From: a virus
Direction: 5' to 3' (one strand)
Length of the DNA: 63,293 nucleotides
UHGV virus genome: UHGV-0247968
Below are positions 9,562 to 63,293 of the stretch, piece by piece. Numbering within the stretch: position 1 is the stretch's first letter; every line of letters begins with the position of its first letter. A program made the position numbers and the translations under genes. The notes beneath the pieces are model-generated. The model ran no database searches. It saw only the letters and a list, made by a program, of their open reading frames with translations, and was not told the origin of the DNA.

Positions 9562-10741
9562 GACCAATCTTGTTCCTGTCGTCGTCAATAACCAGCCCCC
9601 CATGCTCGCCGACGGGCAGTTCTCTGGTGTCGTCGACACCCTGATGGACAACGCTTTCTCCGGCTTCGGCGCCGGGCTGCGTATCCTCAAGCCGGGGAAG
9701 ATGAGCTTCAAGCTCATCGAGAACCGTCAGGAAGTCGACATCCCCAACGGTCAGGTCTTTGGCGTCCTTCTGGGTGTGGCGCCTTGCAACTACGCTTCGT
9801 GGTATGCCAGACAGTATGCTCCCGGGCAGGAACCGTCTCGCCCTGACCTCGTGTGGATGATGCCTACGGCTGACACGTTCCCCGACGCGCTCCCTGCCGA
9901 ATACCACCAGAAGGTGAGCGTCAACGGGCAGGAGCGCTGGGGGTTCCGTATCGCCCGCCGTACCGTGTGGGCCCTGATGACCAACCAGAATGGGCAGTTC
10001 TACCTCGACCTTGAACGCCCCGTCGTCCTGGACATCACCAGCACCAGCCTCTACGGCAACTCCGACCCGCGCAGCAACAGCTACCGCTGGGGCGGCATCA
10101 AGGGCTTCTGTGACCGTCACAGCCAGCCCGGCGTCTTCCGCTGCAACCCGGCTATGTTCGTGACCCAGATTATCCTTGACCCGCAGAGCCCCGTCTCCGG
10201 CGTCATGCTGTTCCGCCCCAACCTTGACCAGAACGGTAATCCGGCTTACCTTGACAGCCAGACTTACACGTCTGTAATCCAGACGGCCAGCACTGAGCGC
10301 ATCACTGAAATGCTGCGCGTCAACGAAATCCTGACCTATACCCCCAATGGTGTCGGTGCTATCCAGCCCGTCCCTGCGGCGGTCAATATCGGCAACAGTG
10401 CGCAGGTTATGCAGCCTATGGCCCAGCCTGTGCAGCAGCCTGCGCCTCAGCCTGTGCAGCAGCCCATGGCCAAGGTCGCGCCTTCTGGTATGAATGACAT
10501 GCTGTCCCGAGCTGCGGCTGTGCTGGATGGTGCTCCGGCCCCCGCTGCCCAGCCTGCTCCGGCCCCGGCTCCCGCTGCCCAGCCTGCTCCGGCCCCGGCC
10601 CCGGCTCCCGCTGCCCAGCCTGCTCCGGCTCCGGCTCCGGCTCCGGCCCCCGCTGCCCAGCCTGCTCCGATTCAGGCCAATGTGAGCAAGGAAGCCTCTG
10701 ATGCCCTCACTGGCATTCTGGCTGATGTTGCCGGTTACTAG
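9554..10741 (+). CDS. hypothetical replication/recombination-module protein with a Pro/Ala-repeat linker and an acidic/aromatic C-terminus
   Basis: RBS AAGGAGAAG before the ATG at 9554. C-terminal (AAQPAPAPAP)n then ...SDALTGILADVAGY. Function unknown; could be an SSB or annealing protein. Confidence 0.5.
   Translation: MSETNLVPVVVNNQPPMLADGQFSGVVDTLMDNAFSGFGAGLRILKPGKMSFKLIENRQEVDIPNGQVFGVLLGVAPCNYASWYARQYAPGQEPSRPDLVWMMPTADTFPDALPAEYHQKVSVNGQERWGFRIARRTVWALMTNQNGQFYLDLERPVVLDITSTSLYGNSDPRSNSYRWGGIKGFCDRHSQPGVFRCNPAMFVTQIILDPQSPVSGVMLFRPNLDQNGNPAYLDSQTYTSVIQTASTERITEMLRVNEILTYTPNGVGAIQPVPAAVNIGNSAQVMQPMAQPVQQPAPQPVQQPMAKVAPSGMNDMLSRAAAVLDGAPAPAAQPAPAPAPAAQPAPAPAPAPAAQPAPAPAPAPAPAAQPAPIQANVSKEASDALTGILADVAGY
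10409..10669 (+). repeat. imperfect Q/P/A-rich tandem repeats (QPVQQPAPQPVQQP; AAQPAPAPAPAP xN)
   Basis: Variable-length hexamer (ccggc[ct]) expansions read directly from the sequence. Confidence 0.8.
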
Positions 10742-10961: not shown

Positions 10962-13900
10962 ATGCTTCAGCAAACAAGACGTTTCCTTTCGAGTCTGCTC
11001 CCCCCGCTCCCTCCCCGTGAAGACTCTTTCAGCTTCCCCACATATTTTTCTCTGGGTATCAAAGACGGTTCCCGTCGGCAGAGCCCTTGCCCCAGTATCG
11101 ACGACATAATCTCCGAAGGATTTTCCCTGTCGTCACAGGGCTACAACGCCTACTTCGCCCTCGCCTCTTTCGCTGATGGTGCGGCAGGGCGCAAGCAGGT
11201 GAATGCGCGTACCCTCAAAGCCTTCTGGGTAGACCTTGATGTAGGTAAGCAAGGTATCTCCTACCCTACCATCCAGTTCGCAGCCTTTTGCCTGAACCGT
11301 TTCGTGCGCGAGACGGGTCTCAATCCGTCGTGGATTATCCATTCCGGTAAGGGCCTGCATGTATATTGGGCCCTGTCTGAGCCTGTGCCGGTCTCCTGGT
11401 GGCGCCGCGTCGCTTTCATGCTGGAAAAGGAATGCGCCGCTTTCGACCTCTGGGCAGACCCGGCTTGCACCAAAGACCCGGCGCGTGTGTTGCGTCTTCC
11501 GGGCACCATCCATCAAGGCACCGGCAACACCGTGTCCGTGGTGCGGGAGACCGGCTGGGTATGGGAGCCGCACAAGTTCGTGGAAGTCATGCTGACTTCC
11601 ATGGCGGAGAAACATCCTGATGCCATCATCAAGCTCAAGGCGGAGCTTAAGCCTGCTGTTCCTCAGAACATCGCGCAGACGCCGCAGCTTGCGGTATTGA
11701 CCGGCAATGCGCTGTTCTCCGACGACATGGGGTTCACATCTTCCGCTCCGGTGGCGAAGTCCGAACCCATAGTGCGTGGCTGCCGTCAGATGCTCTTCTC
11801 CGGTAAGGGGCAAGAGCCGCACTGGTATGCCGCCATGTCCGTGTTCAAGCGCTGTGTGGACGGCAGGGAGTGGGCCCATGCCGTGTCGGCTCTGGACAAG
11901 GAACGCTACAATCCTGCCGACTGTGACGCGAAGTTCGACCATGCCCCCGATGACGCTCCCGCCCGGTGCGAGCGCTTCGACAGCTTGAATCCCGGGGTAT
12001 GTCCTGCATGTCCGCACTGGGGCAAAATCACTTCCCCTGTGCAGTTGTGGCGGAAGTCGCAGAATGCCGGTGAAACGTTCGTGCAGCAGCCTGTGGCCCA
12101 GCCGGTGCAGCAGCCTGTGGCCCAGCCTGCGCCCCAGCCGGTGCAACGACTCATCATCCCGGAAGTCTTCGACCACCCGCGTATCGGGTTCCGCAGCAAG
12201 CGTTACAGCGTGGATGACAGAGGATGCATCTGGCACAAGTCGGAGAAACAGGACGACGGTTCCTGGGTGACGACAGACCATATCCTCACCACATCCCAAG
12301 TCTATTACATCAAGTCGGAATGGACATACACGAATGGTGTTTCTGAGCGTTCGCATTGGTTCGAGGTGCGCCACAAGCATGGGGCTGTCGAACTGATGCG
12401 CTTGCCTGCTTCCACGCTGGCAAGCAATCAGAGCCTTATGGCCGCGCTCAATTCTTCCAACATCCTTTCGTGTAACCTTGACATGTACACCCCTAAAATA
12501 TTTGCAAGTTTTATGAACAGCTACCTTCGCAGTGTTTTGGAAAACGGGTACAGTACAGAGATTCAGACGCGGGATGTGTTCGGGTGGACGGACATTACCG
12601 ACCCCGTGACGAACCAGCCCACGTTGGGTTTTGGCGTGGGCCATGGTGTCATCACAGATACCGGCATCCACGACATGGTGTATAAAGGCTCGGCTGAAAA
12701 GCTGGCGAAGAAGGAACTGTCCATCAAGGGCGACCTCGACAAATGGAAGTACGTCCCGCAGATGTACCGCATCCTCAACCAGCCTGCTGCCCAGCTCGCT
12801 ATCTGCCTGTCCTTCGCGGCTCCGCTCATGCACTATGGCCCGGGCGTCGTGCGTTCCGCTGCCTACTCTTTGTGGAGCACCACATCCGGCAAGGGTAAGT
12901 CGCAGGTGTTGTGCTCCGCCGCCTCCATCTGGGGGCATCCTGAAGAGCAGTTCGTGCAGCGCAATTCCTCTGCCGTCATGCGGATGAGGAAAATGGCCGT
13001 GCTGAACAATCTGCCCGTCTACATGGACGAACTTTCGGACATGAAAGACGAAGACCTCTATGCCCTCGCCTACAGCCTCATGGGCAATCAGGAGAAGCAG
13101 AAGCTCAAGAGCAACGGTGCTGAGATGGTCGACACCGGTTCATGGTCTACGGTCACGTTCATCACGTCGAACAAGTGCATCAAGGAAGCCGTTGCCCGCC
13201 ATGCCGGGGATTCGGAGGCCAGTATCGTGCGCGTGATGGAGTATGAGTGTGACTTCCCCTCGTATGCCGACAAGCCGGAAGTGCAGGAATATATCCACGC
13301 GTGCATGGATGCCTGCAAGACGAACTACGGCCTCGCCGGGCCCGAATTCATCTATCAGGTCTTGAAGCACAGAGACCGGCTGGCGACGCTCACGCAGCAG
13401 GTGGAGACGTGGTGTCGTAAATACGGCTTCGACAACTCGGAACGCTTCCTGAGCTATCCCTTGGCGATGGCGATGAAGGCCGGGCGCTGGGCTGTGGAGT
13501 ATGGTCTGTTGGACTATGACATGGACGCGCTGGAGAACTGGGTCATCAATGTCTTCGTGCCGCATAACCGTCGCAGCACCGAAGCGAATACGTCTGACCC
13601 CGTGCATATGCTGACGACGTACCTCATGGAGCGCCAGCTCAATATGCTGGTGGTCAGGGCCAACCATCGTGACAAGACCATGCCCGAGCAGCCGCATGGG
13701 GTACCGGACAAGTACATCGTGAGTCTGCCCAACAATAGGGACATTACCATGCGGGCCGTGCTGGCGACGCAGGAATTGTACATCTCGCGTTCCGACCTGC
13801 ACAAATGGCTCAAGGCCCAGAAGCATTCGCCTTCCAATCTCTGGAAGCGTCTCGAAGACAGAGGCATCACAGCCAAAGATACGACCAAGAATTTTGGTGA

Positions 13901-26172: not shown

Positions 26173-26643
26173 CTAGCTGTTGGTGTAGCGAATCTGCGTG
26201 GTGCGCGAAGCCTCGCGCCAACGGATGCTCAGATTGGGGGCATGTTCGTGTTCGCCCAGAGAAATCCAGACCTCATCGCAACCCATGAAACGCACGGCAT
26301 TTTCCATATAGCGGAACAGTTCCGCTTCACACAGCTTGTCTCCGCCAGCGTACCAGTCTTCGATTTGGAACACCTGCGAGTTGTACGCCAGCGGGCGGAA
26401 CGGGATACCGATGAGGTACCCGACGGGCTTGTCGTTCTCATCCCAGGCCATGAAAATCTTCAGCGCCTTGGTGAACCAGAGCTGTGCAAACGTCTGCACG
26501 TTCATGTCGAACGGCTTGCCGTAGACGTGCTGCTTTTCGTTGACCCAGGACGCCGTGTAAAGCGGAGCGAACTCTCGCGTCAAATCGTCCAGGGCGATGT
26601 TGATGTCCTTGTTGGGTTCCAGAATGTCGATACGATAGTCCAT
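26173..26643 (-). CDS. hypothetical protein
   Basis: ORF. Weak GNAT-like hydrophobic pattern but no Q/RxxGxG/A motif. Confidence 0.35.
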   Translation of the reverse strand: MDYRIDILEPNKDINIALDDLTREFAPLYTASWVNEKQHVYGKPFDMNVQTFAQLWFTKALKIFMAWDENDKPVGYLIGIPFRPLAYNSQVFQIEDWYAGGDKLCEAELFRYMENAVRFMGCDEVWISLGEHEHAPNLSIRWREASRTTQIRYTNS

Positions 26644-26658
26644 GGTGTCGTTCTCCTG

Positions 26659-28341: not shown

Positions 28342-29685
28342 TCAGTCCCAGAGTTCTTCAGCTTTGTACTTGTTGACAGAGTCTACGCCGCCAGCAGGGC
28401 GTATATGGAGACTCACCGGATACCCGGAAGGGAACCCGGAATCCGAATGCAGGATGAGTTCATGCTCCCCTGCCATCCACACACCGGCGGGCTGCACACG
28501 CGCAAGGACGGTGGACGAAAAGTCGAGCGTGGTCTTGGCTGTATGCGGGTCATCGGTCCCACTCACAATAGTCTCAGCCGTGGCCGTGGTGCTGCACCGC
28601 AGGATGTTGGACTGAGGCGTACCATCGAGCCGGACCTGGAGCTGCGAAATCCATTCTCTGGTCGCGACGGTCAAGATGTCGATGACGATGGGCACGGCAG
28701 TGCGCAAGGTGAAACCGATGACCTGCCGCACGATGTCTCCAGCAGGGGCAGGGAGCAGAGTATGGATGGCATCAGGGCGTTGCGTATCTTCGATAGCCAC
28801 CACAGAGCCAAGTGCGTTCAGCTCCACGTTGAAAGGTCCAAAAGCATATGTCTGCGCTTGGACGTTGATACTCCGCGTCAGGTTGAAAATACGGTTCTTG
28901 AGGTCGAGCTGGATGTCATAACCACCGAGCTGGTAGATACCTTCCAGCGCATTCGCCGGTTTGCTCAGAGAGACCGTAGCGATTCCGGTCTTGTTGTCAG
29001 TGGATACGTCTATGCCGTCACCAGGAACGAGGGCATTCACCGTGTCAGACGTAGTCGGTTCCGTGTATTCCACCAAATGACCGTATTGGTCGAAGCGCAT
29101 ACCATTCACGGTGGTGTTGAGACCACCGGTCTTGTGCGCAATGACCAGAGCATCGTCGGCAGTCCCGGCGCCGGTGACGGTCACACCGCTGTTCCCCGCC
29201 ACGACGCGCAAAGTCTCGGCAGAGATATTGGCCCTGATGCGGTAGGGGTCGGAAGTGGTGCCGCTGCCACTGACGGCGATGCCATCCTCGCCTTTGATGG
29301 TGCACCGCACCAGAGGACGCCCGGAAGCATCGCAGGTATAGAGATTACCGGCCAGCGTAGAAGCGTCACATATGGAAACATCTTCACCGGACGATGCACA
29401 ATCGACAGGAACTTCCGTACAGGACGGAGGCACATACAGCGCCACGTCAGCTTTCTCCAGACCAACGATACATCCGTCGGCTATGATGATGCGGTCGTAG
29501 ATACCATCAGGCGGCGGCGTTCCGGGCTGCATCTTCAGGCAACCGTTCTCTTGCCACAAACGTCCTCCCCAGGGGAGACACAACGAAAAATCAGGGCAAC
29601 GAGACGGAGCCTTCGATTCCTGGAGGATATTTCCATCGCAATCGAATGACATACGGGGGGAACATTTATCTTTCATCAGTGTCAC
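28342..29685 (-). CDS. tail structural protein
   Basis: 447-aa ORF. Confidence 0.4.
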   Translation of the reverse strand: MTLMKDKCSPRMSFDCDGNILQESKAPSRCPDFSLCLPWGGRLWQENGCLKMQPGTPPPDGIYDRIIIADGCIVGLEKADVALYVPPSCTEVPVDCASSGEDVSICDASTLAGNLYTCDASGRPLVRCTIKGEDGIAVSGSGTTSDPYRIRANISAETLRVVAGNSGVTVTGAGTADDALVIAHKTGGLNTTVNGMRFDQYGHLVEYTEPTTSDTVNALVPGDGIDVSTDNKTGIATVSLSKPANALEGIYQLGGYDIQLDLKNRIFNLTRSINVQAQTYAFGPFNVELNALGSVVAIEDTQRPDAIHTLLPAPAGDIVRQVIGFTLRTAVPIVIDILTVATREWISQLQVRLDGTPQSNILRCSTTATAETIVSGTDDPHTAKTTLDFSSTVLARVQPAGVWMAGEHELILHSDSGFPSGYPVSLHIRPAGGVDSVNKYKAEELWD

Positions 29686-29731
29686 CTCTGTTGAAAGTGA
29701 TACCGCATCCGTACTTAAAAGAAAAGAGCGC

Positions 29732-29760
29732 TTGACTTTACGGAGGCGCTGCGGTTAAAT
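29732..29760 (+). promoter_or_regulatory. sigma70-like promoter TTGACT-17-TTAAAT on the strand opposite to the flanking genes
   Basis: Coordinates anchored to ORF 29759. The -10 element overlaps the ATG of the 71-aa ORF 29759..29974, so that ORF would not be translated from this transcript. Confidence 0.4.
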
Positions 29761-29766
29761 GGGCTT

Positions 29767-29940
29767 CGACGACAGAGATGCCGGACGGGCTGATGAACAT
29801 GGTGCTGTTCTCCGCCGACGTGGTGAGACTCCGGTCTCACCACGTCACACATCTCTTGGTACGCTCGGCCATGTGCGCGTTATGAGCTTGCGGAAAGGCC
29901 CCCGTTTCCTGATGGGAACGGGGGCCTTCGTGTTTTTGTC
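29767..29940 (+). ncRNA. candidate small RNA (~170 nt) in the intergenic gap between two - strand tail genes
   Basis: The promoter above is followed by a perfect 13-bp hairpin gacgtggtgagac-tccg-gtctcaccacgtc (29817-29846). An intrinsic terminator ggcccccgtt...aacgggggcc + ttcgtgttttt (29897-29940) is oriented for the + strand. Confidence 0.4.
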
Positions 29941-29945
29941 TGGGG

Positions 29946-30602
29946 TTAAAGGGCTCTGCCGAACCCCATCTTGATGATTCCGCGTTGTCCTTGCAAGGCA
30001 GCGTCCTGGGCCAGTTTGCCCAGCATACGCCGGAACTCGGCATACAATTCGCTGCCGACTTTGAGATTGGTCCACGGACGACCTGTGATGAGCATGATGG
30101 AAGCACGCGTCCCCATGATGAGGGCAGGAAAAAGTTCATGCTCGAACTGGCTCGGAAGAGCGCAGCTATTGCGCCCAGGGACCACACCCATGGACACGCG
30201 AAGTTCTCCGCCACAGTCGCACATGCACGCATGGAGAACTTGTTCGTCAGGGTCATACCAGACCTTGTCCCCATGCAAACGGGGCCACTCTTCTGTGGCT
30301 ACGAGAGTTCTGCGTACATCATGGAGGCAACTGTCGCCGCTTGTCGGATGATGCGAAACGCCTGTCAGGGCCGTCATTTCCATCCCATCAGGCGATTTCA
30401 CTGCATACCGAGTGACCCCAGGCTGCAATTTGATTCGCACCGTCCGCGTCACAAGGGGCGCCTTGCGGCACATCTCGATGGCAGTACGGAGCAAGTAATA
30501 GTCGAACAGCTCCGCCGGAAGGTCTTTCCATTCGAACCGCAGTTCGGCATGGAACTCACTTAGCGGCGTTGTTGGAAACGGCTCGTACACGACCATCAGC
30601 AT
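29946..30602 (-). CDS. hypothetical structural protein
   Basis: ATG at 30602 after GGAGGAAA. Overlaps the 3' end of the upstream gene. Confidence 0.4.
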   Translation of the reverse strand: MLMVVYEPFPTTPLSEFHAELRFEWKDLPAELFDYYLLRTAIEMCRKAPLVTRTVRIKLQPGVTRYAVKSPDGMEMTALTGVSHHPTSGDSCLHDVRRTLVATEEWPRLHGDKVWYDPDEQVLHACMCDCGGELRVSMGVVPGRNSCALPSQFEHELFPALIMGTRASIMLITGRPWTNLKVGSELYAEFRRMLGKLAQDAALQGQRGIIKMGFGRAL

Positions 30603-31251: not shown

Positions 31252-31755
31252 TTACTCCGCAGACTGGAGCAGGGCCGCGATGTCGGCCTCGATACCGTGG
31301 TAGTAGTTGTCGAGAGGCTGGGCCGCGTAGGGCATACGGGTAGCTTCTTCGACGCTTTTCGAGGTCGTGATTTCTTCCATCGTGGGCTTATGCTCACCAG
31401 AAAACGTCTGGGCCTGTTTGATGACCGTGGCATGCGCTTCGGCCAGCAGAGCGTCACGTTCGGCAGGCGTGTATTCCGCCGGATTGACGGTGGTAAGCCA
31501 CGCCTTGGGGTCCGTGTTGCCGTTGCTATCGCAGCATTCCATGATGTCACGCTGCTCGGCCAGTGTCGCATCCCAAGGGAAGACGATACCGTTCTTCTTG
31601 CTGCGCAGGTGCGAAGAACGCGGCAACGGAGGAACCGCGTTCTTCGCACCTGCGGTGTAAAGGGCTTGCTGCCGTGCAGTGGTGTCACGGATATCGAGGA
31701 TGTTATGCAAGTCCTGGGGCGGGACAGGGGTGGCATCGGCAAGAGGCTGATACAT
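31252..31755 (-). CDS. hypothetical structural protein
   Basis: ORF. Confidence 0.4.
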   Translation of the reverse strand: MYQPLADATPVPPQDLHNILDIRDTTARQQALYTAGAKNAVPPLPRSSHLRSKKNGIVFPWDATLAEQRDIMECCDSNGNTDPKAWLTTVNPAEYTPAERDALLAEAHATVIKQAQTFSGEHKPTMEEITTSKSVEEATRMPYAAQPLDNYYHGIEADIAALLQSAE

Positions 31756-31793
31756 AGTGCTGTTCTCCTTTGTATGGGTGGAGGGTATGGAAC

Positions 31794-33833: not shown

Positions 33834-34820
33834 TTATCCGGCGGCTCGCAGCTCTTTCAGCCGCGTGCGGTATTCATCCGGGGAAATCCGCCGCATTTGG
33901 TACAGGCTGTTGAGTTCAGCCAAGGTAAGAGTGGGTTTGTCGGCAGAAGAAGTCGCCGGAGTAGCGGCCCCACCCGCAACCTGCACAGGCGGCACAGTAG
34001 TGACCTTGCCATTGTCAGGACGGTTCTGTTTGAACTTGTCCACGATGTCGATGACATAGCGCGTGTTACCGGCGTAGAACTCCTGCGTAGCCGCCTGGTC
34101 ACGACTCCGGCTGCTCAGACCGTCAGGTTCCTGGAGATATTGCAGGAAAGCCGGGTCATTGAACAGGCTGTAGAAATCAGGATGCACTTGCAGGATTTCA
34201 CCAGCGTAACGCGCTATCTGCGCCTGCTGCGTAGCGTTGAGCGCTTCGACACGATTGCGTTCGATGGCCTCACGCTGGGCCTTGACTTCAGCCGCGACGC
34301 CGTCAATGGGCTGCTTCAGCATACGCGCCGTCATGGCAGCAATACGACGGGCGTCGGCAGGGTCAACCGTCTCCAGAGCGTTCAACTCATCCGCACCGTC
34401 AAGACTGGCAAGCATGGCCTGCTGCTGTTGGGCGGCTTCGAACTCAGCATTGCGCTTCTGCATCTCGGCCAACTGATTGGCGAGAATATCACGTTCGTGC
34501 GCAAGCTGCTGCATCTGTTGCGTCTGCTGCGTCATAAGCGCAGCCTGGCGCTGCTGCTGGGCCATGAGCGTATAAGGGTCGAGAGGCGGCTGCTGGACCG
34601 GCTGCTGGACCGGCTGCTGGACCGGCTGCTGGACCGGCTGCTGGACCGGCTGCTGGACCGGCTGCTGGACCGGCTGCTGGACCGGCGGCTGCGACTCGGA
34701 CTGGGCCGCTTCCGCTCTGGCGTATTGGTCACGAAAAACCTGTGCCATACCGGGAGTACGCGTAAAGGCAGAAGAGACGGAAGTATTGCCGCCACCAGGT
34801 GCCGCAGGGTTGTTGGACAT
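33834..34820 (-). CDS. scaffolding protein (candidate), coiled-coil, with a (QQPV)x8 repeat
   Basis: ATG at 34820 after AGGAGA. Gln-rich coiled coil. Sits between the portal/unknown genes and the capsid gene. Confidence 0.5.
   Translation of the reverse strand: MSNNPAAPGGGNTSVSSAFTRTPGMAQVFRDQYARAEAAQSESQPPVQQPVQQPVQQPVQQPVQQPVQQPVQQPVQQPPLDPYTLMAQQQRQAALMTQQTQQMQQLAHERDILANQLAEMQKRNAEFEAAQQQQAMLASLDGADELNALETVDPADARRIAAMTARMLKQPIDGVAAEVKAQREAIERNRVEALNATQQAQIARYAGEILQVHPDFYSLFNDPAFLQYLQEPDGLSSRSRDQAATQEFYAGNTRYVIDIVDKFKQNRPDNGKVTTVPPVQVAGGAATPATSSADKPTLTLAELNSLYQMRRISPDEYRTRLKELRAAG
34584..34691 (-). repeat. 12-bp tandem repeat x8 (cagcagccggtc on the coding strand) encoding QQPV
   Basis: ctgctggaccgg x8 on the + strand. 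Confidence 0.9.
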
Positions 34821-40131: not shown

Positions 40132-40584
40132 CTACTCCACAGGCAGCGCATGGGCTACTTTGGCTACACCCTTCGGCAACGGAAGGGGTACAGCGACATT
40201 GACCTGGGTATTCACCTGTGTGGTCTCCTTCGCATCCGCGAGACCCGCCACCTTGACCAGCATGTCGAGCAGTTTCAGCGCATCACGGGAGTCCATATCT
40301 CCGCTGTAAGCATCCCGGAACAACTTTTCCCAAAGCGCTTGAGAAAGCGTCAGGGCCCTGTATCTTGCCCCAGCTTTGCTGCCCTGGTTTTTGACCTCTT
40401 CCAGACTCCCCTGAAAAAGCCGCTGGAAATAGGGATTATGCAGGATGTCCATAAGTTCCTGCTTCGTGAGACCATATTCAGACATGATGGACTTGATGTC
40501 CGTAGGACTGTCAGGAACCTGCAAAATAGCGAGGTCGCGAGCCAGCGACGGCCAACGTACCTGATTCTTCAAAGGTTCATTCAT
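40132..40584 (-). CDS. terminase small subunit (candidate)
   Basis: 150-aa ORF directly upstream of terL with an HTH-like N-terminus. Confidence 0.4.
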   Translation of the reverse strand: MNEPLKNQVRWPSLARDLAILQVPDSPTDIKSIMSEYGLTKQELMDILHNPYFQRLFQGSLEEVKNQGSKAGARYRALTLSQALWEKLFRDAYSGDMDSRDALKLLDMLVKVAGLADAKETTQVNTQVNVAVPLPLPKGVAKVAHALPVE

Positions 40585-40670
40585 GGTGCTGAGTCTCCAA
40601 GATAAAAAGGGGAGGCATACGCCTCCCCTTTCGGTATTCGATTGTTATATCGAGAACAGCGCATCTGCGC

Positions 40671-43798: not shown

Positions 43799-45157
43799 TT
43801 AGGCGTCCATGGTGCCGTAGTCGGAATAGACCATCAGCTTGCCATTGTCGCACTGAATCTGGTTGCCGGCAGTTTCGGAAATCATGGAACAGCCCAGAGA
43901 GCCTTCCGGGTTGTCGACCATGCCGTTGACGATGTTCGTCACCGAGTTCGTGATGTCGGCTTCCGTGAGCAGGGCGCCCTTGTCAGTACCGGGCTTGATG
44001 AGGTTGCCGCCATCGGCGGACACGACCTTCACAGACAGTTTGCCGTCGGCACCGGCCTTGATAGCGTTGTCGGCGTCGGAAGAAATCGTGTTGGTGAAGT
44101 CCACCACGATGTTGCCGCTTTCATCGAACTTGATACCGGTTCCCAGCTTGGCGGAGATGGTATGGCCGTCGATGGTGATACCCTGACCGGCGGTGTACAC
44201 ATCCACGAGGTCGGTCACATCCACATAGGTGTCAGCCACGGAACCGTCGGACAGTGCCCAGATGAAGTGCAGGTACACACCGGATTTCAGGCCCACCCCG
44301 GGCGTGAAGCTGACAGTGCCGCTGACCGTGGTACCGCTGACCGCGAACGGGACAGAGGCGGACGACGTGTCATCAAACGTCACCGTGGCCGGGCTGGAGC
44401 CACCTTCCACAGTCTTGTCGTCGCCGTTGAACACAGCACGCACAGCAGCGACCGAGGTACCACCTTCGGCCAGCTCGGTGGAGTATTCGGCGGTACCGGC
44501 GGAACCCTTGGTGGTCGTCACCTGGACACCCACGGCATCAGACCAGGCGCCGTTCTGGTCGCGGAAAATCAGGGTCAGGTGGTAGTCGCCTTCGACAGTT
44601 TCACCACCGGCATCGGGCTTACCATCCGTCAGTTCCACACCCTTGAGCACGGAAGTGCTGGACGGGATGGTCACGTTGGCGACTTCGGTGGAACCGTCAT
44701 GGCCGACGAGTTTCAGTTTACCGGAGGGCTGGTCGTAGGTCATGCTGAGGTCAGCGGCGACCTTGCCGTCGGCATCATGCAAAATCTTGTCACCGGCACG
44801 GATGATGAGATTGGCGTCAGGGGCCTTGGCATACAGCTTACTGTCGGAACCGACGGACAGACCGTTGTTCGCGTCGCCGGACACCAGGTCGGTAGCCAGG
44901 GAAGTCATGTCCACAGTGAGCGTCACATCGCCAGCGAGCGTGCCCTCAGTGGAGCCGTTCACTTTCAGGTGGGTGTCGCCAGTGACCTTGCGGTCTTCGC
45001 GGGCCATAGGAATACCACCGGCAGTGGAACCGTCGTGGACGACCACGACCTTCTTATCGGTATCGACAGTCAGTTCGCCGACTTTGCCGGTGTACGAGGC
45101 ATGCTGCGCAGTCGTACCACGATATTGCTGGATAGCGTCGGGAGTTTTACGAGCCAT
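43799..45157 (-). CDS. tail fiber protein with an Mtd-type N-terminal domain
   Basis: IQQYRGTTAQHASYTGKVGELTVDTDKKVVVVHDGSTAGGIPMA, followed by a repetitive beta-rich shaft. Confidence 0.65.
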   Translation of the reverse strand: MARKTPDAIQQYRGTTAQHASYTGKVGELTVDTDKKVVVVHDGSTAGGIPMAREDRKVTGDTHLKVNGSTEGTLAGDVTLTVDMTSLATDLVSGDANNGLSVGSDSKLYAKAPDANLIIRAGDKILHDADGKVAADLSMTYDQPSGKLKLVGHDGSTEVANVTIPSSTSVLKGVELTDGKPDAGGETVEGDYHLTLIFRDQNGAWSDAVGVQVTTTKGSAGTAEYSTELAEGGTSVAAVRAVFNGDDKTVEGGSSPATVTFDDTSSASVPFAVSGTTVSGTVSFTPGVGLKSGVYLHFIWALSDGSVADTYVDVTDLVDVYTAGQGITIDGHTISAKLGTGIKFDESGNIVVDFTNTISSDADNAIKAGADGKLSVKVVSADGGNLIKPGTDKGALLTEADITNSVTNIVNGMVDNPEGSLGCSMISETAGNQIQCDNGKLMVYSDYGTMDA

Positions 45158-49430: not shown

Positions 49431-49462
49431 AACACGAAAAGCCCCCGCTCGTGCGGGGGCTT
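49431..49462 (-). terminator. intrinsic terminator (agcccccgc-acga-gcgggggct + TTTCGTGTTT on the - strand)
   Basis: Lies downstream of the 49491 gene. Confidence 0.65.
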
Positions 49463-49490
49463 CGCTTACATCATTACTGAACAGCAGCGC

Positions 49491-52865: not shown

Positions 52866-53083
52866 CGTAACATACTCCTTACTAGCAGCAGCAACCTGTT
52901 CTCCAGGAGGTCGGAGATTATGACCACGAGCCATATCAGCATCAGGATGATGCGAACAGCGGCCCCAGCCTGGACCCACCCCGGTGCAGTGGACAGCGTA
53001 TACATCAGACCGAACACATCGGTCACGACACCGAAAACAACGAGAGCGACGGCAAAGGCCACTATCCAGTACACACGAGACAT
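52862..53083 (-). CDS. small membrane protein (2 TM helices)
   Basis: Two strongly hydrophobic segments. Confidence 0.5.
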   Translation of the reverse strand: MSRVYWIVAFAVALVVFGVVTDVFGLMYTLSTAPGWVQAGAAVRIILMLIWLVVIISDLLENRLLLLVRSMLR

Positions 53084-53086
53084 GGA

Positions 53087-53725
53087 TTAACTCTTCCCGG
53101 AAAGTGTTTCATCAGAAGAGGATTCCACCGTAGTGTCGACCCTGTTGAAAGGATACCGCCAGGGCAGCAGTTCGGGGTGGCCCAGAGCAGGGAAAATGGC
53201 GTCAAGGAAAAATTTCCACTCAGGGAGCTTGTGGTTATCGCGCTGCAAGATGATGTTCTTCAGGACAGCATAGTTCCCCGTCCAGATGCGACGCTGCAAC
53301 CAGCTCTGCGGGAGACAGGCGTTGAGCCTGCTGAAATCCCCGTCCTGCCGCAAATCTTCCAGAAAGTTGACATAGTAATCAGGAACATGCCTGGATTCGA
53401 AGCAATACTTCGTAACAGGCTTCTTCATCAGCGTGTGCATCGTGGACTCGGACTGGGCCACGGTGGACACCTTGTAGGTGTCCATCTGCTTCCACCAGTA
53501 CAGCGGCGCCGTGATGTCGAGGATGACACCAATCTGCCGCAGAAACTTGTCGTGTCCACCGGCGCCGTACAGCGCGAGCTGCGGCGCCAGTTCGCACAGC
53601 CTGGCCCATTCATCGTGCTGCTTGGCCTCTTCGGGCGTCGCATACCCGGACACCTTCCCATACGACAACCCGATACCGAACAGGGCCTCTTCGTACCCAA
53701 ACTCTTTCATCAGCCGAACACGCAT
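53087..53725 (-). CDS. ThyX-family (flavin-dependent thymidylate synthase-like) protein with non-canonical active-site motif
   Basis: GHDKFLRQIGVILDITAPLYWWKQM aligns with the ThyX [25 protein letters not shown] region. RIWTGNYAVLKNIILQRDNHKLPEW aligns with the ThyX C-terminal ...TGNYR.W..FI..R...HA..EI motif. Canonical RHR(x7)S is replaced by TYK(x7)E. Confidence 0.45.
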   Translation of the reverse strand: MRVRLMKEFGYEEALFGIGLSYGKVSGYATPEEAKQHDEWARLCELAPQLALYGAGGHDKFLRQIGVILDITAPLYWWKQMDTYKVSTVAQSESTMHTLMKKPVTKYCFESRHVPDYYVNFLEDLRQDGDFSRLNACLPQSWLQRRIWTGNYAVLKNIILQRDNHKLPEWKFFLDAIFPALGHPELLPWRYPFNRVDTTVESSSDETLSGKS

Positions 53726-53726
53726 A

Positions 53727-54023
53727 TCACATATCCTTCTTGAGCCACGCCGCCAGCGCAGCTTCTCCATCTGGTGTCAAAAGATAATATCCCCGCACAT
53801 TGCCGCGATGCCTCGGCAGCCCGATACGCATGAGGAACCCCTTGCCGCACAGCTTGTTGGCTATCCCGCAGGCACGCATGGCAATACCCTGACGATACCG
53901 CGCGGAAGGTTTCCTGGGCGGTAACGACGCGAATGCCCTGAGACCAAGCACATAGCCGAACGCATGACCCCTCGGCAGGTCGGCCACCGCCTTCAGGATG
54001 CGGTATTCCGCAAGTGTCAGCAT
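53727..54023 (-). CDS. winged-helix DNA-binding protein (MarR/PadR-like)
   Basis: YRILKAV...GYVLGL...RGYYLLTPDGEAAL. GGGAGG RBS. 1-nt TGATG coupling with the dUTPase gene. Confidence 0.45.
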   Translation of the reverse strand: MLTLAEYRILKAVADLPRGHAFGYVLGLRAFASLPPRKPSARYRQGIAMRACGIANKLCGKGFLMRIGLPRHRGNVRGYYLLTPDGEAALAAWLKKDM

Positions 54024-54538
54024 CAGTCACCTCCCGTGGACCCGAAGCCCTTCGTTTCCCTGTAGGTGTGCGACAATTCCTCGACCACGGCGAACTCGAC
54101 GTCGATGCTGAGACCCTTGTTGATGTCCGCGACCACGAGCGCCGGGGCCATGATGGTCGGCACGATGATGAGCTGCGCCACCCTCTGGCCCTCATAGTAG
54201 GCCACAGTGGGCTTGCGCAGGAGCGACGCGGCGCCTCTGGCCTGCACACTGTCCGCTTTGCGGAACAGCACCTTCACCGTGCCCCGGTAGTCAGGGTCGA
54301 TGACCTGGACACCGCTGCCCATCATCTCCAGACCTGAACACACGACAGAGCTGCGGGCCACGAGCAGACCGGCGAACCCTGCGGGCAACTCCATCTCCAC
54401 ACCGGTGTCGAAACAATAAACCCCGTTCCGCCGCGTGAGCTTCGCCCCCCAAAGGTCGAACCCCACGGCACCGCCGCTCATGCGACACGGCACCTTCGCC
54501 CCGGCGAGCGTGAGCTTACACGGGATGATGACAGCCAT
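54023..54538 (-). CDS. dut: dUTP diphosphatase (dUTPase)
   Basis: Motifs GAVGFDL, RSS, GVQVIDPDYRG and RGxxGFGSTG. ATG at 54538 after AAGGAGG. Confidence 0.85.
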   Translation of the reverse strand: MAVIIPCKLTLAGAKVPCRMSGGAVGFDLWGAKLTRRNGVYCFDTGVEMELPAGFAGLLVARSSVVCSGLEMMGSGVQVIDPDYRGTVKVLFRKADSVQARGAASLLRKPTVAYYEGQRVAQLIIVPTIMAPALVVADINKGLSIDVEFAVVEELSHTYRETKGFGSTGGD

Positions 54539-54590
54539 ATCTTCCTCCTTGTTATGATGTATAGTAAAGCATAGTAAGTCGCAAAGGTCA

Positions 54591-54626
54591 ATAAAAAACC
54601 CTCCCGCGTGTCGGAGAACGGGAGGG
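54591..54626 (-). terminator. intrinsic terminator on the - strand (ccctcccg-ttctccgacac-gcgggaggg + TTTTTTATT), at or near the IS right end
   Basis: Read directly. Separates the TnpB region from the dut promoter-like sequence TTGACC-17-TTTACT. Confidence 0.6.
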
Positions 54627-54639
54627 TTCTGAGAGGTGT

Positions 54640-54830
54640 GGCTCACCAGGAACGCATGACTGATGCTCCACAGGAATGTATCCGGTCCCTGCAACACCCC
54701 GGGCGTATCACCCTAGTTTCACCCGGGACATCGTTCAGGCAGTTTTGGTTGTACCCCAGGAGCGCGCCATAGTCAACATTGACATCCTCCCCCGCCTAAA
54801 GTCGGGGGATTCCTATCGGTAGCGGCTCTA
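54640..54830 (-). ncRNA. putative TnpB-associated omegaRNA / right-end RNA
   Basis: By analogy with IS605-family elements the guide RNA overlaps the tnpB 3' end and extends to the right end. Strong secondary structure is visible (ggaggatgtc..., cccgggtgaaactagggtga...). Not verified. Confidence 0.3.
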
Positions 54831-56030
54831 ACGAGCCGCGCCACAGGCGGGTTCCTGCTTCGACGCGGGCGCTTGAGCCCTTCCCGCTCCACAGGCTGTC
54901 ACGGCCTGCCCGGCCGCCAGAATGTTCAACGCCGCATTATGGTCAGCGTTGCATTCAAATCCGCAGGCCGTACAGCTGAATTTCGCCTGCGTTGGTCTGT
55001 TTGCCCTGTCTACGCATCCGCAATGGCTGCATGTCTGACTGGTATACTGCGGTGGAATGACAATCAGCACACCTCCCAGCCATTTCAACTTGTACTCAAG
55101 CTGTCTGCGGAACTCATACCAGCCCTGATCCAGTATGGACTTGTTTAATCCTGCCTTTGCCCGCACATTTTTCCCCGGTGCTTCAAGCGTACCGGAAGCC
55201 GAACGCGACATATTCCGCACTTTCAAATCTTCAATCACGACAAGAGCGTGGTTTTTGCTGATTATCGTGGTTGTCTTGTGCAGAAAATCGTTGCGTACAT
55301 TGGCTATTGTACGGTGCAGGCGCTGGATTTTGGCTTTGAGCTTCTGCCAGTTGGCGGAAAACTTCACTCGTTTTGCCAACTTCCGCTGCAGCTTTGCCAG
55401 CTTCTTTTCATGCTTGCGGAAACTGTGCAGTGGTCTGATAGAAGAGCCATCGGAAAACGTCGCAAAACGGGCAATGCCCATATCTATGCCGACGACACTT
55501 TGCGAAGGATGCACAGGTTCTGGAACTTCCCGTTCCGTCTGAATGGAGACGTACCACTTTCCAGCGGAAAGAGAGACTGTCACCTGTTTCGGCGTTCCCT
55601 CTATTTTGCGGCTGTTGCGGTAGCGTATCCACCCGATTTTGGGAAGGAATATGCGGTCGTTCCTCTCGTCCAGCTTGAAACCCTGCGGATAGCGGAAGGC
55701 GTCATGAACCCCCTTTCTCTTGAAACGCGGGAAATTCGCACGCTTCGCAAAAAAGTTTTTGTAGGCCCTATCGAGATCTTTCAACGCTTGTTGCAGAATT
55801 TGAGAATGGGCTTCAGCAAGAAAAGATGTGTCGTTTTCCTTCTTCCAGTCCCGAAGGGCTTCGCAGAGCAAGGAAAACCCCAGACGCTTCCCTTCCTTTT
55901 CATAGGTCTCTTTTTCCAATGCAAGCGCCTTGTTCCAAAGGAAACGACAACAGCCGGCAAAGCGCCGCATGAGGCTTTCCTGCCCGGTTTTGGGGCGGAG
56001 CTGAAACTTATAGGCTTGCAATCTTTCCAT
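54828..56030 (-). CDS. tnpB: TnpB (IS605 OrfB-type RNA-guided nuclease)
   Basis: MERLQAYKFQLRPK start. RuvC-like motifs GIDMG, VVIEDLK, NADHNAALNI. Zinc finger CSHCGC...CTACGFEC. Confidence 0.85.
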   Translation of the reverse strand: MERLQAYKFQLRPKTGQESLMRRFAGCCRFLWNKALALEKETYEKEGKRLGFSLLCEALRDWKKENDTSFLAEAHSQILQQALKDLDRAYKNFFAKRANFPRFKRKGVHDAFRYPQGFKLDERNDRIFLPKIGWIRYRNSRKIEGTPKQVTVSLSAGKWYVSIQTEREVPEPVHPSQSVVGIDMGIARFATFSDGSSIRPLHSFRKHEKKLAKLQRKLAKRVKFSANWQKLKAKIQRLHRTIANVRNDFLHKTTTIISKNHALVVIEDLKVRNMSRSASGTLEAPGKNVRAKAGLNKSILDQGWYEFRRQLEYKLKWLGGVLIVIPPQYTSQTCSHCGCVDRANRPTQAKFSCTACGFECNADHNAALNILAAGQAVTACGAGRAQAPASKQEPACGAAR

Positions 56031-56303
56031 AGGTTCCAGTCTATCGCAGCACAAACGAAAAGGCAAAAATTCCAGTTAAGGTGCGCCTTATATCCCCGCC
56101 CTGAAGGGCGAGGCTTTACGGCGCGCTGGGTAAAATCTGGTGCCCCGCCCCATCAGCTCAACCGCAGGCGGTATGGGGCGGGGACTTTCAAGTTTGGCGT
56201 TCCAGGGTTGGCGTCCGGTCGCGTACCCCAGAAACACATCGGGTGTGCAGTCACCCGACAGCAAACTGTACAAAACGTCACGTCGTCTTGCTGTTGGCTG
56301 AAC

Positions 56304-58256: not shown

Positions 58257-58259
58257 CAA

Positions 58260-59205
58260 CAAAACAACCTCTCCCCCTTCCATGTGGTGCCTCTATGTCT
58301 GGGATACCCGCCTGAGTGATAGGTTAACGACGGAACCGCACATGGTGGTGCGCTCCAGTAATCTGGTGCGTCCAGTGTGAACATGTGCGGATAGTGTCGT
58401 GTGGTGTGAAGGCACGACACAAAGGGCCGATGTATGATTAGCACACTGCGTGTGCGAGTTATACAGAGCGGCCCATGTATGACTGGCACGCGACGTGAAA
58501 CTATTACGCTGCGTGCCAGTCATACAATGAAGCTGTTTCACCAGCGAAAGTAAAAACAACTTACGTCAAATGTGATAATGTTTCTCAAAAGTCTTTGAAG
58601 GCTTTTTCGAGTGTTGTTTTTACTGAATTTTACATGATTTTAACACTCGCGAAAGTTTAGCACTCGCGAAAGATGAAGTGTGAAACTTTTGCGCGTAGGC
58701 AAAACTTATGCGAGTGTGTAGCAAGAAAATGCAACAATACAGGAAAAAAGTTGCGAGAAAACGACGAACACTCGCGAAAGTTCTGCCTACGCGCAAAAGT
58801 TTCACAGTTTGACTTATGCGAGAGAGTAAACTTTCATTTTGCTGTGAAGATTCCTGCAAAAGCTGCATGGCACCAAACAGCAAGGGAGAAGAAAAGAAAA
58901 AATACAATAATAATAATATATTATATATTATATATATTATATATATATTCTTCCTTCTCACAGAAGAAATTTCTTTTTCATTTTTCTGCCGATTTTTACC
59001 CCTTGCTGGAGATTTTTCGCGGGTTGAGAATGTTGCGTGTTTTTTGCGCTGTTCTCCCCCTTCTCCACATTCTTGGCTGTTCTTTCCAAATCGGCAAAAA
59101 ACTTTCAATCTTTTATGAGTAGCCTTCCTCACCTTCTCTACCTTCTTACTCACACAAGGCTACTCACTTTGTTTTTCAACCCCAAAAAGTGTCGAGGGAG
59201 GACAC
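58260..59205. repeat. ~950-bp AT-rich non-coding region with iterons and inverted repeats (candidate replication origin / regulatory hub)
   Basis: CACTCGCGAAAG x3 (58644, 58661, 58769). 22-bp inverted repeat gtgaaacttttgcgcgtaggca (58680-58701) / tgcctacgcgcaaaagtttcac (58784-58805). Direct repeats ACTTATGCGAG (58703, 58811). TGTATGA(C/T)T iterons direct at 58431 and 58476, inverted at 58511-58526 (16-bp perfect IR with 19-nt spacer). (TA)n/ATATT microsatellite 58900-58950. Confidence 0.6.
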
Positions 59206-59210
59206 GCAAA

Positions 59211-62300: not shown

Positions 62301-62312
62301 GAGGAAAGCACC

Positions 62313-63278: not shown

Positions 63279-63293
63279 AATCCTTTTCCGCGC

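What the first reader, a model, noticed from the sequence alone, without database searches (positions are those of the whole stretch)
29732..29940. Candidate antisense-strand small RNA with its own promoter and terminator inside the tail-gene block
The 260-bp gap between two minus-strand tail genes contains a + strand TTGACT-17-TTAAAT promoter, a perfect 13-bp stem hairpin 50 nt downstream, and a GC-rich stem plus TTTTT terminator correctly oriented for the + strand. The flanking genes are all on the - strand. The only + ORF (71 aa) begins upstream of the predicted transcription start. This is a self-contained transcription unit of ~170 nt with no coding function.
Basis: seen in the sequence. 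Interest (0 to 1): 0.6.

Follow-up and report, generated by a model that had tools for sequence, protein, structure and literature searches.

The report
Candidate phage antisense small RNA cassette
A conserved 270-base gap between the head and tail genes of an uncultured gut Desulfovibrio-type phage most likely makes a ~170-base non-coding RNA from the opposite strand, one that lies over a ribosome-binding site and a 20-codon reading frame on the late-gene strand; this is a plausible new example of a known kind of phage antisense regulator, and no transcript has been shown.

Summary
These are TTGACT-17-TTAAAT (29732-29760, +), a perfect 13-bp hairpin (29817-29846), and the strongest terminator-like hairpin in the 63-kb window (29895-29928, then CGTGTTTTTG, +). 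They lie in a 269-nt gap between minus-strand virion genes.

In 19 related gut-metagenome contigs the unit is syntenic. Both hairpins show compensatory changes, and the T-rich tail stays on the + side. The two promoter hexamers never vary, while their spacer does. Four substitutions keep pairing only on the + strand, through G.U pairs. More distant relatives carry opposite-strand protein genes in this same slot, with a TTGACA box at the same place beside the tail-gene promoter and a bidirectional terminator after the head-side gene.

The invariant core carries a perfect copy of this phage's recurrent ribosome-binding motif (GGAGAACAGCACCATG), followed by a conserved 20-codon ORF.

Best reading (about 0.5): a + strand antisense sRNA covers that minus-strand RBS and micro-ORF. 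Main rival (about 0.25): only the minus strand is functional. The -10 box lacks the consensus A, there is no Rfam match, and there is no expression evidence. I class it as a new member of a known kind, of moderate interest.

The parts
29732..29737 (+). -35 box TTGACT of the candidate + strand promoter
   Evidence: Read directly. It is invariant in 17 distinct relatives. It sits 6 bp from the T-rich box of the tail-gene promoter. An opposite-strand TTGACA box occupies the equivalent position in L028, L030 (the tool calls TTGACA-17-TATTAT, 11 of 12) and L036.
29755..29760 (+). -10-like box TTAAAT, 17 nt after the -35 box
   Evidence: Read directly. It is invariant in relatives, while 6 of the 17 spacer positions vary. 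It lacks the consensus A at position 2, so the scan tool does not call it.
29768..29937 (+). Predicted non-coding transcript of about 170 nt (5' end inferred, 3' end in the U-tract)
   Evidence: The fold has a z-score of -6.2 against shuffles. There is no Rfam family match. The + ORFs are not conserved: indels in the linker, and a 7-nt insertion in the L008-type hairpin.
29774..29856 (+). Conserved 5' domain: closing helix AGAGAUG (29774-80) with CAUCUCU (29850-56), enclosing hairpins H1 and H2
   Evidence: Minimum-free-energy and centroid structures. Substitutions in the 3' strand in relatives give G.U and U.G pairs on the + strand but A.C mismatches on the minus strand. This is one of the most conserved stretches in a 9.3-kb neighbourhood: 97-98% identity, in the top 0.3-1.5% of 96-nt windows where the mean is 83%.
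29788..29816 (+). Hairpin H1. Its apical part (29798-29813, CAUGGUGCUGUUCUCC) is the exact complement of the phage's recurrent ribosome-binding motif
   Evidence: H1 is invariant in all relatives except one bulged base (U/C).
29817..29846 (.). Perfect 13-bp hairpin H2 (loop TCCG)
   Evidence: Read directly. Five contigs carry a compensatory T-A to C-G change plus an enlarged loop that keeps pairing by G.U on the + strand only.
29861..29894 (+). Variable linker between the conserved domain and the terminator
   Evidence: Three unrelated sequence versions occur among relatives. Homology of the rearranged contig L067 to the window stops at 29860.
29895..29938 (+). Intrinsic terminator: 15-bp GC-rich stem-loop (29895-29928) plus CGUGUUUUUG. 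It probably also serves as the end of the head-gene transcript
   Evidence: Strongest terminator-like site in the window. Three pairs show compensatory changes. The T-rich tail is kept on the + side in three sequence versions, whereas the minus side has only UUUCC. In the window clade, the U.G pair exists on the + strand only.
29738..29813 (-). Minus-strand translation start and 20-codon ORF: SD GGAG 29813-29810, ATG 29800-29798, stop TAA 29740-29738 (MFISPSGISVVEAHLTAAPP)
   Evidence: It matches GGAGAACAGCACCATG at 16 of 16 positions. That motif recurs at real gene starts: 8 hits with up to 3 mismatches against 0.85 expected (gene starts). Its position-weight score ranks 43rd of 2551 ATGs. 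The frame and stop codon are kept in all relatives. Codons 18, 19 and 20 vary synonymously; codons 3, 17 and 19 vary non-synonymously.
29697..29725 (-). Candidate promoter of the tail-side gene (TTTTCT-17-TATCAC), back to back with the + promoter
   Evidence: Both boxes and their spacing are kept in L028 over a different spacer. Relatives with a short gap have TTGAC[AG]-17-TAT[AG]G[AG] at the equivalent place. This is a weak consensus match and the assignment is inferred.
28342..29676 (-). Flanking gene, 444 aa, with no family hit (context)
   Evidence: The ATG at 29676 has a GAGGTG Shine-Dalgarno sequence and is conserved in relatives.
29946..30596 (-). Flanking gene, about 216-aa virion structural protein (phrog_437), next to the SU10-type adaptor gene (context)

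Best explanation
The gap holds a small opposite-strand transcription unit that sits in a variable accessory-gene slot between the head-side and tail-side virion genes.

Host RNA polymerase would start at TTGACT-17-TTAAAT, around position 29768. It would transcribe a structured non-coding RNA of about 170 nt and stop at the GC-rich hairpin and U-tract at 29895-29938. The convergent head-gene transcript would share that hairpin as its own end.

The invariant 5' domain of the RNA has a closing helix, hairpin H1 and the 13-bp hairpin H2. It is fully complementary to a hairpin, a consensus Shine-Dalgarno sequence with start codon, and the first codons of a 20-codon ORF on the late (minus) strand.

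The RNA would therefore pair with late transcripts that read through the hairpin. Pairing would mask that translation start and create a long duplex that can be cleaved. This would tune what passes from the head module into the tail module.

Shown here: the sequence elements, their conservation, the covariation of two helices, and the synteny of the slot. Inferred: transcription on the + strand, the 5' end, the pairing, and its consequence.
For: 1. Terminator. It is the strongest terminator-like site in 63 kb and is oriented for the + strand. Three of its pairs covary, and the T-rich tail persists on the + side in three different sequence versions. The only comparable terminator in the window (49463-49438, minus strand) has the same GGGGGC..TTCGTGTTT design in its own direction of transcription. 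So orientation is meaningful in this phage.

2. Promoter. The -35 and -10 hexamers are invariant in 17 distinct sequences, while 6 of the 17 spacer bases vary. Read as codons, third positions vary at 0 of 16 codons inside the hexamers and transcript but at 3 of 4 codons inside the spacer (my count).

3. Strand test. Four separate substitutions keep a pair only on the + strand, through G.U, and none does so only on the minus strand.

4. Synteny. The slot is empty or about 55 nt in L029, L033, L034 and L037. It holds opposite-strand genes in L030 (PAPS reductase plus a 78-aa gene) and in L036 (Bro-N plus three genes). It holds a 512-nt gap with no called gene in L028, whose opposite strand folds with z = -5.3. 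Wherever there is cargo, a terminator follows the head-side gene, and a TTGACA box on the opposite strand sits 4-8 bp from the tail-promoter box.

5. Conservation. The core is 97-98% identical between clades whose neighbourhood averages 83%. It contains the longest perfect run (97 nt) in 9.3 kb.

6. Coding potential on the + strand. The + ORFs are not conserved and have no Shine-Dalgarno sequence.

7. Precedent. Small antisense RNAs of 176 +/- 30 nt in the structural region of phage PAK_P3 were found by RNA-seq (PMC4933390).
Against: - TTAAAT has T where sigma-70-type -10 boxes almost always have A. The promoter scan does not call it, and the promoter match alone is at chance level.
- The minus strand carries a 16-of-16 copy of the phage's ribosome-binding motif and an in-frame, stop-conserved 20-codon ORF with some synonymous variation. 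This could make the minus strand the functional one.
- Helices H1 and P1 are invariant, so they have no covariation support.
- The G.U strand test rests on only four events (one-sided p about 0.06).
- High-identity patches also occur in nearby coding DNA, and recombination within this gap is visible (L059). So part of the conservation may be mosaicism rather than selection.
- The hairpin has three U residues on the minus side too, so it may end transcripts in both directions.
- There is no expression data, no Rfam match, and the element is confined to one narrow clade.
Confidence: 0.5

Rival explanations
1. Only the minus strand is functional. The gap is part of the late polycistronic mRNA. 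The GC-rich hairpin after the head-side gene would be a partial terminator or a 3' stabiliser, in the manner of T7's terminator after the capsid gene. The 13-bp hairpin would be a processing or stabilising stem. It is followed 4 nt later by a strong ribosome-binding site and a translated 20-codon ORF. That ORF would be a small protein, or a leader peptide ending in Pro-stop, lying ahead of the tail-gene promoter.
For: - There is a perfect match to the recurrent motif GGAGAACAGCACCATG, which marks real gene starts at 7192, 26643, 31755, 40584 and 62313.
- Its position-weight score is in the top 2% of all ATGs.
- The ORF frame, the final Pro codon and the TAA stop are kept in all 17 variants, with synonymous changes at codons 18, 19 and 20.
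- All neighbouring genes are on this strand.
- Relatives L028, L030 and L036 have a terminator for the structural strand at this place.
Against: - No third-position change occurs in codons 1-16, so coding constraint alone cannot explain the invariance.
- The U-tract is on the wrong side for a minus-strand terminator in all three versions.
- All four G.U-type substitutions would be A.C mismatches in the minus-strand RNA.
- I found no minus-strand promoter between the hairpin and the ORF.
- In contig L067 the core is intact although the upstream head genes are replaced by opposite-strand DNA. That contig is a single unverified observation.
- A 20-aa product with no hydrophobic helix has no obvious role.
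Confidence: 0.25
2. The unit is the vestige of an accessory-gene slot. On this view a promoter and a terminator were left behind when an opposite-strand cargo gene was lost. The unit has no function of its own, and its conservation reflects recent recombinational spread among closely related phages.
For: - The slot gains and loses cargo across relatives.
- Mosaic high-identity patches and a recombinant inside the gap (L059) are visible.
- The -10 box is degenerate.
Against: - The core holds the longest perfect run in the neighbourhood, while the linker next to it has three unrelated versions.
- Compensatory changes maintain both hairpins.
- No similarity was found to cargo proteins of relatives.
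- The PHROG hit of the 71-aa + ORF is marginal (E = 0.0024), and the frame is not conserved.
Confidence: 0.1
3. The element acts at the DNA level. It would be a control region for the back-to-back promoters, or a boundary sequence that promotes exchange of head and tail modules. The palindrome would be a protein-binding site.
For: - The core adjoins two divergent promoter candidates.
- Homology breakpoints in L059 and L067 fall at the edges of the core.
- One contig assembly (169709) breaks next to the terminator hairpin.
Against: - The L008-type variant adds 7 nt between the two half-sites and carries a compensatory stem change. That fits a folded nucleic-acid hairpin, not a dimer-binding palindrome.
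- The constrained stretch (about 100 nt) is much longer than an operator.
Confidence: 0.1

Closest known systems
P22 Sar RNA and lambda OOP RNA (phage cis-antisense small RNAs with their own promoter and terminator)
   Same: All are short, about 70-170 nt, and are transcribed opposite to an operon from their own promoter. Each is complementary to an intercistronic or ribosome-binding region of the sense mRNA. They act by pairing and by RNase cleavage or translation block (review PMC5415839; details of Sar are from my own knowledge).
   Different: Sar and OOP belong to the lysis-lysogeny circuitry of temperate phages. This unit sits between the head and tail modules of an apparently virulent podovirus-like phage. 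It covers the start of a 20-codon ORF rather than of a known regulator. There is no sequence or Rfam similarity, and expression has not been shown.
Early antisense RNAs in the structural region of Pseudomonas phage PAK_P3
   Same: These are small antisense RNAs (mean 176 +/- 30 nt) located in the structural-gene region of a virulent phage. They were proposed to damp late-gene expression (PMC4933390).
   Different: All but one of the PAK_P3 antisense RNAs lie within genes, and they were found by RNA-seq. This one is intergenic, has a canonical terminator, and rests on sequence evidence only.
Type I toxin-antitoxin pairs such as ibs/Sib and hok/Sok
   Same: Both have a very short ORF with a strong ribosome-binding site, overlapped by a structured antisense RNA of about 140-170 nt from the opposite strand (my own knowledge).
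   Different: The 20-aa product (MFISPSGISVVEAHLTAAPP) has no hydrophobic membrane helix, which is the defining property of these toxins. No toxicity is known. I do not file it in this family.
Phage morons (accessory cassettes with their own promoter and terminator inserted between late genes)
   Same: It is a self-contained promoter-cargo-terminator unit in a slot that is empty in some relatives and filled with different cargo in others.
   Different: Here the cargo is a non-coding RNA of about 170 nt rather than a protein gene.

Membership tests
Intrinsic (Rho-independent) terminator | GC-rich stem-loop immediately followed by a U-rich tract on the transcribed strand | tested here: met
   There are 15 pairs (10 GC) and a 4-nt loop, followed by CGUGUUUUUG on the + strand. 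The minus side has only UUUCC. T-richness on the + side is kept in three sequence versions.
Intrinsic (Rho-independent) terminator | Helix maintained by compensatory changes in relatives | tested here: met
   Three pairs change on both sides: GC to AU, CG to UA, CG to UA.
Sigma-70-type promoter | -35 box close to TTGACA, with a 16-18 nt spacer | tested here: met
   TTGACT with a 17-nt spacer. It is invariant in relatives. It is positionally homologous to the TTGACA boxes of the cargo promoters in L030, L036 and L028.
Sigma-70-type promoter | -10 box with A at position 2 and T at position 6 | tested here: not met
   TTAAAT has T at position 2. The scan tool does not list the site.
Cis-antisense small RNA (OOP / Sar type) | Complementarity to a functional region (RBS, start or end) of an mRNA from the opposite strand | tested here: met
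   The + strand at 29798-29813 is the exact complement of a consensus SD-ATG on the minus strand.
Cis-antisense small RNA (OOP / Sar type) | A discrete transcript of the predicted size and strand is made | not testable with these tools
   No expression data are available. The phage is uncultured, with no match among 50,697 phage records.
Any described RNA family (Rfam 15) | Score at or above the family's gathering threshold | tested here: not met
   There are no matches at gathering thresholds in the whole window. The best sub-threshold hit is the PyrG leader at 28 bits against a threshold of 65, and it reflects only the terminator.
Type I toxin-antitoxin | Small toxin with a hydrophobic transmembrane segment | tested here: not met
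   The translation MFISPSGISVVEAHLTAAPP has no run of about 18 hydrophobic residues (read).
Small protein-coding gene on the minus strand | Shine-Dalgarno sequence at correct spacing, a start codon, and a frame and stop conserved in relatives | tested here: met
   GGAG, 9 nt, then ATG. The TAA stop and frame are kept in 17 variants. The position-weight score ranks 43rd of 2551 ATGs.
Small protein-coding gene on the minus strand | Substitution pattern of a coding sequence (synonymous changes spread along the ORF) | tested here: inconclusive
   Three of the four last codons vary synonymously, but none of the first 16 third positions varies. There are too few events to decide.

The most novel reading that the evidence does not exclude
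The RNA could be a trans-acting 'anti-ribosome-binding-site' regulator. Its invariant hairpin H1 presents the exact complement of the phage's consensus translation start. That gives 16 contiguous bases plus the SD against the SNF2-helicase gene start at 7178-7198, and 17 bp with one G.U pair against the 167-aa head-module gene start at 31752-31768. One small RNA would then switch off translation of a set of phage genes at a defined time. It would act as an RNA counterpart of protein translational repressors such as T4 RegA.
Probability: 0.1. Interest if true: 0.7.

Novelty: new member of a known kind. Interest (0 to 1): 0.45.

Why it matters
Phage-encoded regulatory RNAs are known from only a few model phages. 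None has been described for phages of gut Desulfovibrionaceae, a group with no cultured relative of this phage.

If the RNA is real, it would show that the accessory-gene slot between head and tail modules can carry an RNA regulator instead of a protein gene. It would also give a compact, testable case of antisense control at the junction between head and tail gene expression.

The comparative evidence also supplies a host assignment and a ready-made alignment for building a covariance model.

Tried and rejected
1. Known RNA families: none found in the window, in L028 or in L067.

2. Cultured relatives: no DNA or protein match for the flanking gene in 50,697 phage records. The helicase matches at no more than about 30% identity.

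3. Specific targeting of the helicase mRNA. A 16-nt perfect complement to the helicase translation start (blastn E = 0.003) looked like a target. The sequence then proved to be the phage's general ribosome-binding motif. The helicase site is invariant in close relatives, so covariation cannot be tested.

4. Ranking of targets by duplex energy: uninformative, because background windows score as well.

5. Coding potential of the + strand. The 71-aa and 35-aa ORFs are not conserved. The PHROG hit is marginal. There is no similarity to cargo proteins of relatives.

6. Host-derived sequence or prophage. A 22-mer of the core is absent from 185,579 species genomes.

7. More distant copies of the core. 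Two core patterns found only the same 9 viral contigs. One pattern found 10 metagenome contigs. There was no similarity in the slots of distant relatives.

8. CRISPR-repeat reading of window 30-61: rejected. It is a dispersed single-copy element in host genomes.

9. Rearranged contig L067. Its junction was not found in IMG/VR, so the arrangement stays unverified.

10. Sigma-54 promoter and put- or Q-type antitermination readings: considered by eye and dropped, because neither the order of elements nor the motifs fit.

Full report
**Setting.** The window looks like a complete phage genome of about 63 kb.
- Replication genes lie on the + strand: a DNA polymerase, an SNF2-type helicase and a primase-helicase.
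- A 43-kb minus-strand arm (56975 down to 14175) carries the packaging, head, adaptor (Pfam SU10_adaptor) and tail or internal-virion genes.
- There is no cultured relative.
- Related contigs come from human gut metagenomes.
- A mobile-element copy at the window ends has more than 100 near-identical copies in Mailhella and Desulfovibrio genomes. This points to a Desulfovibrionaceae host.

**Check of the observation.**
- TTGACT lies at 29732-37, followed by a 17-nt spacer and TTAAAT at 29755-60.
- The perfect 13-bp hairpin lies at 29817-29846.
- A 15-pair GC-rich stem-loop lies at 29895-29928, followed by CGTGTTTTTG on the + strand.
- The gap measures 269 nt (29677-29945). It lies between a 444-aa gene that starts at 29676 and a virion protein gene of about 216 aa that ends at 29946.
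- The terminator is the strongest terminator-like site in the window.
- The promoter match is at chance level on its own. The scan tool does not call it because the -10 box has T instead of A at position 2.
- Both strands fold far better than shuffles, with z-scores of -6.2 and -5.1.
- Rfam has nothing at gathering thresholds.

**Relatives.** Nine IMG/VR contigs, ten metagenome contigs and one Logan contig carry the same gap. Together they give 17 distinct sequences. The flanking proteins are 82-98% and 88-100% identical to those of the window.

The gap divides into five blocks:
1. The terminator hairpin, which differs in sequence but keeps its pairing. Three pairs change on both sides. Its loop is flipped between variants.
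2. A linker that exists in three unrelated versions.
3. A core of about 100 nt (29752-29856) that is almost invariant.
4. A stretch where 6 of 17 bases vary. This is exactly the spacer between the two hexamers.
5. The -35 box and the region upstream of the tail-side gene.

The core is 97-98% identical between clades whose 9.3-kb neighbourhood averages 83%. It ranks in the top 0.3-1.5% of windows and holds the longest perfect run, 97 nt. Similar patches exist in the capsid gene. A recombinant (L059) shows exchange inside the gap. So part of this conservation could be mosaicism.

Five contigs carry a variant of the 13-bp hairpin with a compensatory T-A to C-G change and a loop 7 nt longer. That argues for a folded nucleic acid rather than a protein-binding palindrome.

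**Which strand?** Three lines favour the + strand.
- The T-rich tail follows the hairpin on the + side in all three sequence versions. The minus side has only UUUCC followed by C/A-rich sequence. The other strong terminator of the phage (49463-49438, minus strand) has the same design in its own direction of transcription.
- Four separate substitutions turn a Watson-Crick pair into G.U on the + strand, which would be A.C on the minus strand. Two are in the closing helix, one in the 13-bp hairpin and one in the terminator. None goes the other way. With four events this is suggestive only.
- The architecture of the slot in more distant relatives, found through homologues of the 216-aa protein, points the same way. 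The gap is absent or about 55 nt in L029, L033, L034 and L037, where it holds only a TTGAC[AG]-17-TAT[AG]G[AG] promoter for the tail-side gene. L030 has PAPS reductase and a 78-aa gene on the opposite strand. L036 has Bro-N and three small genes on the opposite strand. L028 has 512 nt with no called gene, and its opposite strand folds with z = -5.3. In each cargo-bearing relative a terminator, bidirectional in L030 and L036, follows the head-side gene. An opposite-strand TTGACA box also sits a few bases from the T-rich box of the tail promoter. The tool calls TTGACA-17-TATTAT (11 of 12) in L030. The window's TTGACT occupies that same position, 6 bp from TTTTCT-17-TATCAC. So the + strand promoter is supported by positional homology to promoters that drive real genes, even though its -10 box is poor.

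A search for complementarity found that the + strand at 29794-29809 is the exact complement of the helicase translation start at 7183-7198. This is not specific. GGAGAACAGCACCATG is a recurrent ribosome-binding motif of this phage, with 8 hits at up to 3 mismatches against 0.85 expected. It marks gene starts at 7192, 26643, 31755, 40584 and 62313.

The copy in the gap lies on the minus strand (29813-29798) and matches 16 of 16 positions. It is followed by a 20-codon ORF (MFISPSGISVVEAHLTAAPP, stop at 29740-29738). The frame and stop are kept in all relatives. Changes at codons 18, 19 and 20 are synonymous, and changes at codons 3, 17 and 19 are not. Its position-weight score ranks 43rd of 2551 ATGs.

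Against a purely coding explanation, none of the first 16 third-codon positions varies. The relaxed stretch coincides with the promoter spacer.

**Synthesis.** The + strand evidence and the minus-strand translation start are best reconciled by a sense-antisense cassette. A + strand RNA of about 170 nt would run from a promoter that is back to back with the tail promoter. It would end at the terminator shared with the head operon. It would cover a hairpin, a ribosome-binding site and a start codon on late transcripts that read through that terminator.
- I put this reading at about 0.5.
- A minus-strand-only reading (stabilising hairpins plus a translated micro-ORF or leader peptide) is at about 0.25.
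- A vestigial cassette and a DNA-level control or boundary element are at about 0.1 each.
- The idea that the RNA acts in trans on all genes sharing the motif is not excluded. It is no better supported than chance similarity among ribosome-binding sites. Duplex-energy ranking was uninformative, and the helicase site does not vary in close relatives.

**An unresolved contig.** L067 keeps the promoter region and core up to 29860. It then continues into a full copy of the host-type mobile element and then into DNA that maps to window 56300 down to 52894. This is as if 29861-56300 were inverted. In that arrangement every neighbouring feature is co-oriented with the + strand of the core, and no upstream minus-strand gene could feed the micro-ORF. 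That would favour the + strand reading. However, it is a single low-coverage contig, and its junction is not in IMG/VR.

**Comparison with known systems.** The unit would work like lambda OOP, P22 Sar or the PAK_P3 structural-region antisense RNAs. It is laid out like a moron cassette. It resembles type I toxin-antitoxin loci in geometry, but the peptide lacks a hydrophobic helix. It belongs to no described RNA family. I rate it a new member of a known kind, of moderate interest, pending any transcript evidence.

Noticed in passing
window 63279-63293 joined to 1-61 (+); full copy in L067 2693-2830; L068-L147: The window ends carry a partial copy of a structured mobile element of about 150 nt. 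The element has a hairpin CCCTCCC-TTCA-GGGAGGG, then a long stem, and ends in GTGGATTGAAAC. Its last 32 bases look like a type I-C CRISPR repeat, but it is not one. An 18-mer from it occurs as dispersed single copies in more than 120 contigs of Mailhella and Desulfovibrio genomes, including D. piger ATCC 29098. It looks like a gene-less derivative of an IS200/IS605-type element. It gives a host assignment to Desulfovibrionaceae.
   Followed up: partly
window 54779-56129 (-): There is a TnpB-type transposase here, carrying OrfB_IS605, Cas12f1-like TNB and HTH domains. A subterminal hairpin lies at 56094-56121. Relative L067 has 116 unrelated bases in place of this 1.35-kb element, so the insertion is recent. 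Its guide RNA region was not examined.
   Followed up: partly
L067 (ERZ779737 NODE_949), 506-9146: This contig joins window 52894-54778 and 56130-56300 to the mobile element and then to the reverse of window 29860-23540. That is consistent with an inversion of 29861-56300 whose edge lies exactly at the border of the conserved core. It is a single contig, and the junction was not found in IMG/VR.
   Followed up: partly
L028 4652-5162: The relative whose head-side protein is 66% identical has a 512-nt gap in the same slot with no called gene and no Rfam hit. Its opposite strand folds far better than shuffles (z = -5.3), and it begins with TTGACA-17-TTGGAT. It may be a second, unrelated non-coding cargo.
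   Followed up: partly
window gene starts, e.g. 7178-7194, 26641-26656, 31753-31768, 40582-40598, 62300-62315: Many genes share an extended ribosome-binding motif, GGAG-(A)AACA/AAA-GCAC[CT]-ATG. That is far more similarity than a Shine-Dalgarno sequence alone requires.
   Followed up: partly
window 29908-29915 and the same hairpin loop in L002, L003, L006, L009: The loop of the terminator hairpin is exactly reverse-complemented between otherwise near-identical relatives (GGGCA versus TGCCC, AGGCA versus TGCCT). This suggests hairpin-mediated loop inversion.
   Followed up: no
window 58257-59210: This long non-coding region has repeated ACACTCGCGAAAG motifs, a 55-nt inverted repeat (58663-58717 / 58768-58822) and an AT-only tract (about 58900-58950). 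It is probably the replication origin.
   Followed up: no
window 43799-45157 (-), with repeats at 43549, 44688, 45024 and 45405: This protein has a major-tropism-determinant N-terminal domain (Mtd_N), and nearby there are 20-25-nt direct repeats. No reverse transcriptase was seen among the proteins I scanned, so a diversity-generating system is not established.
   Followed up: no
window 49438-49463 (-): This is the second strong intrinsic terminator of the genome. It is similar in design to the one in the finding (GGGGGCTTTTCGTGTTT). It separates the small early-type genes from the late genes of the minus arm.
   Followed up: no
IMG/VR contig 3300045988_169709 (L005 / L012): This 62-kb contig begins and ends inside the gap, immediately after the terminator hairpin. 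It is probably an assembly break at the palindrome rather than a true genome end.
   Followed up: no
window 34587-34694 (-), and 2600-2720, 10400-10700, 12060-12160 (+): There is a tandem 12-nt repeat (CGGCTGCTGGAC, about 9 copies) inside the 328-aa gene upstream of the capsid gene. Pro/Ala/Gln-rich repeat tracts occur in three replication-arm genes.
   Followed up: no
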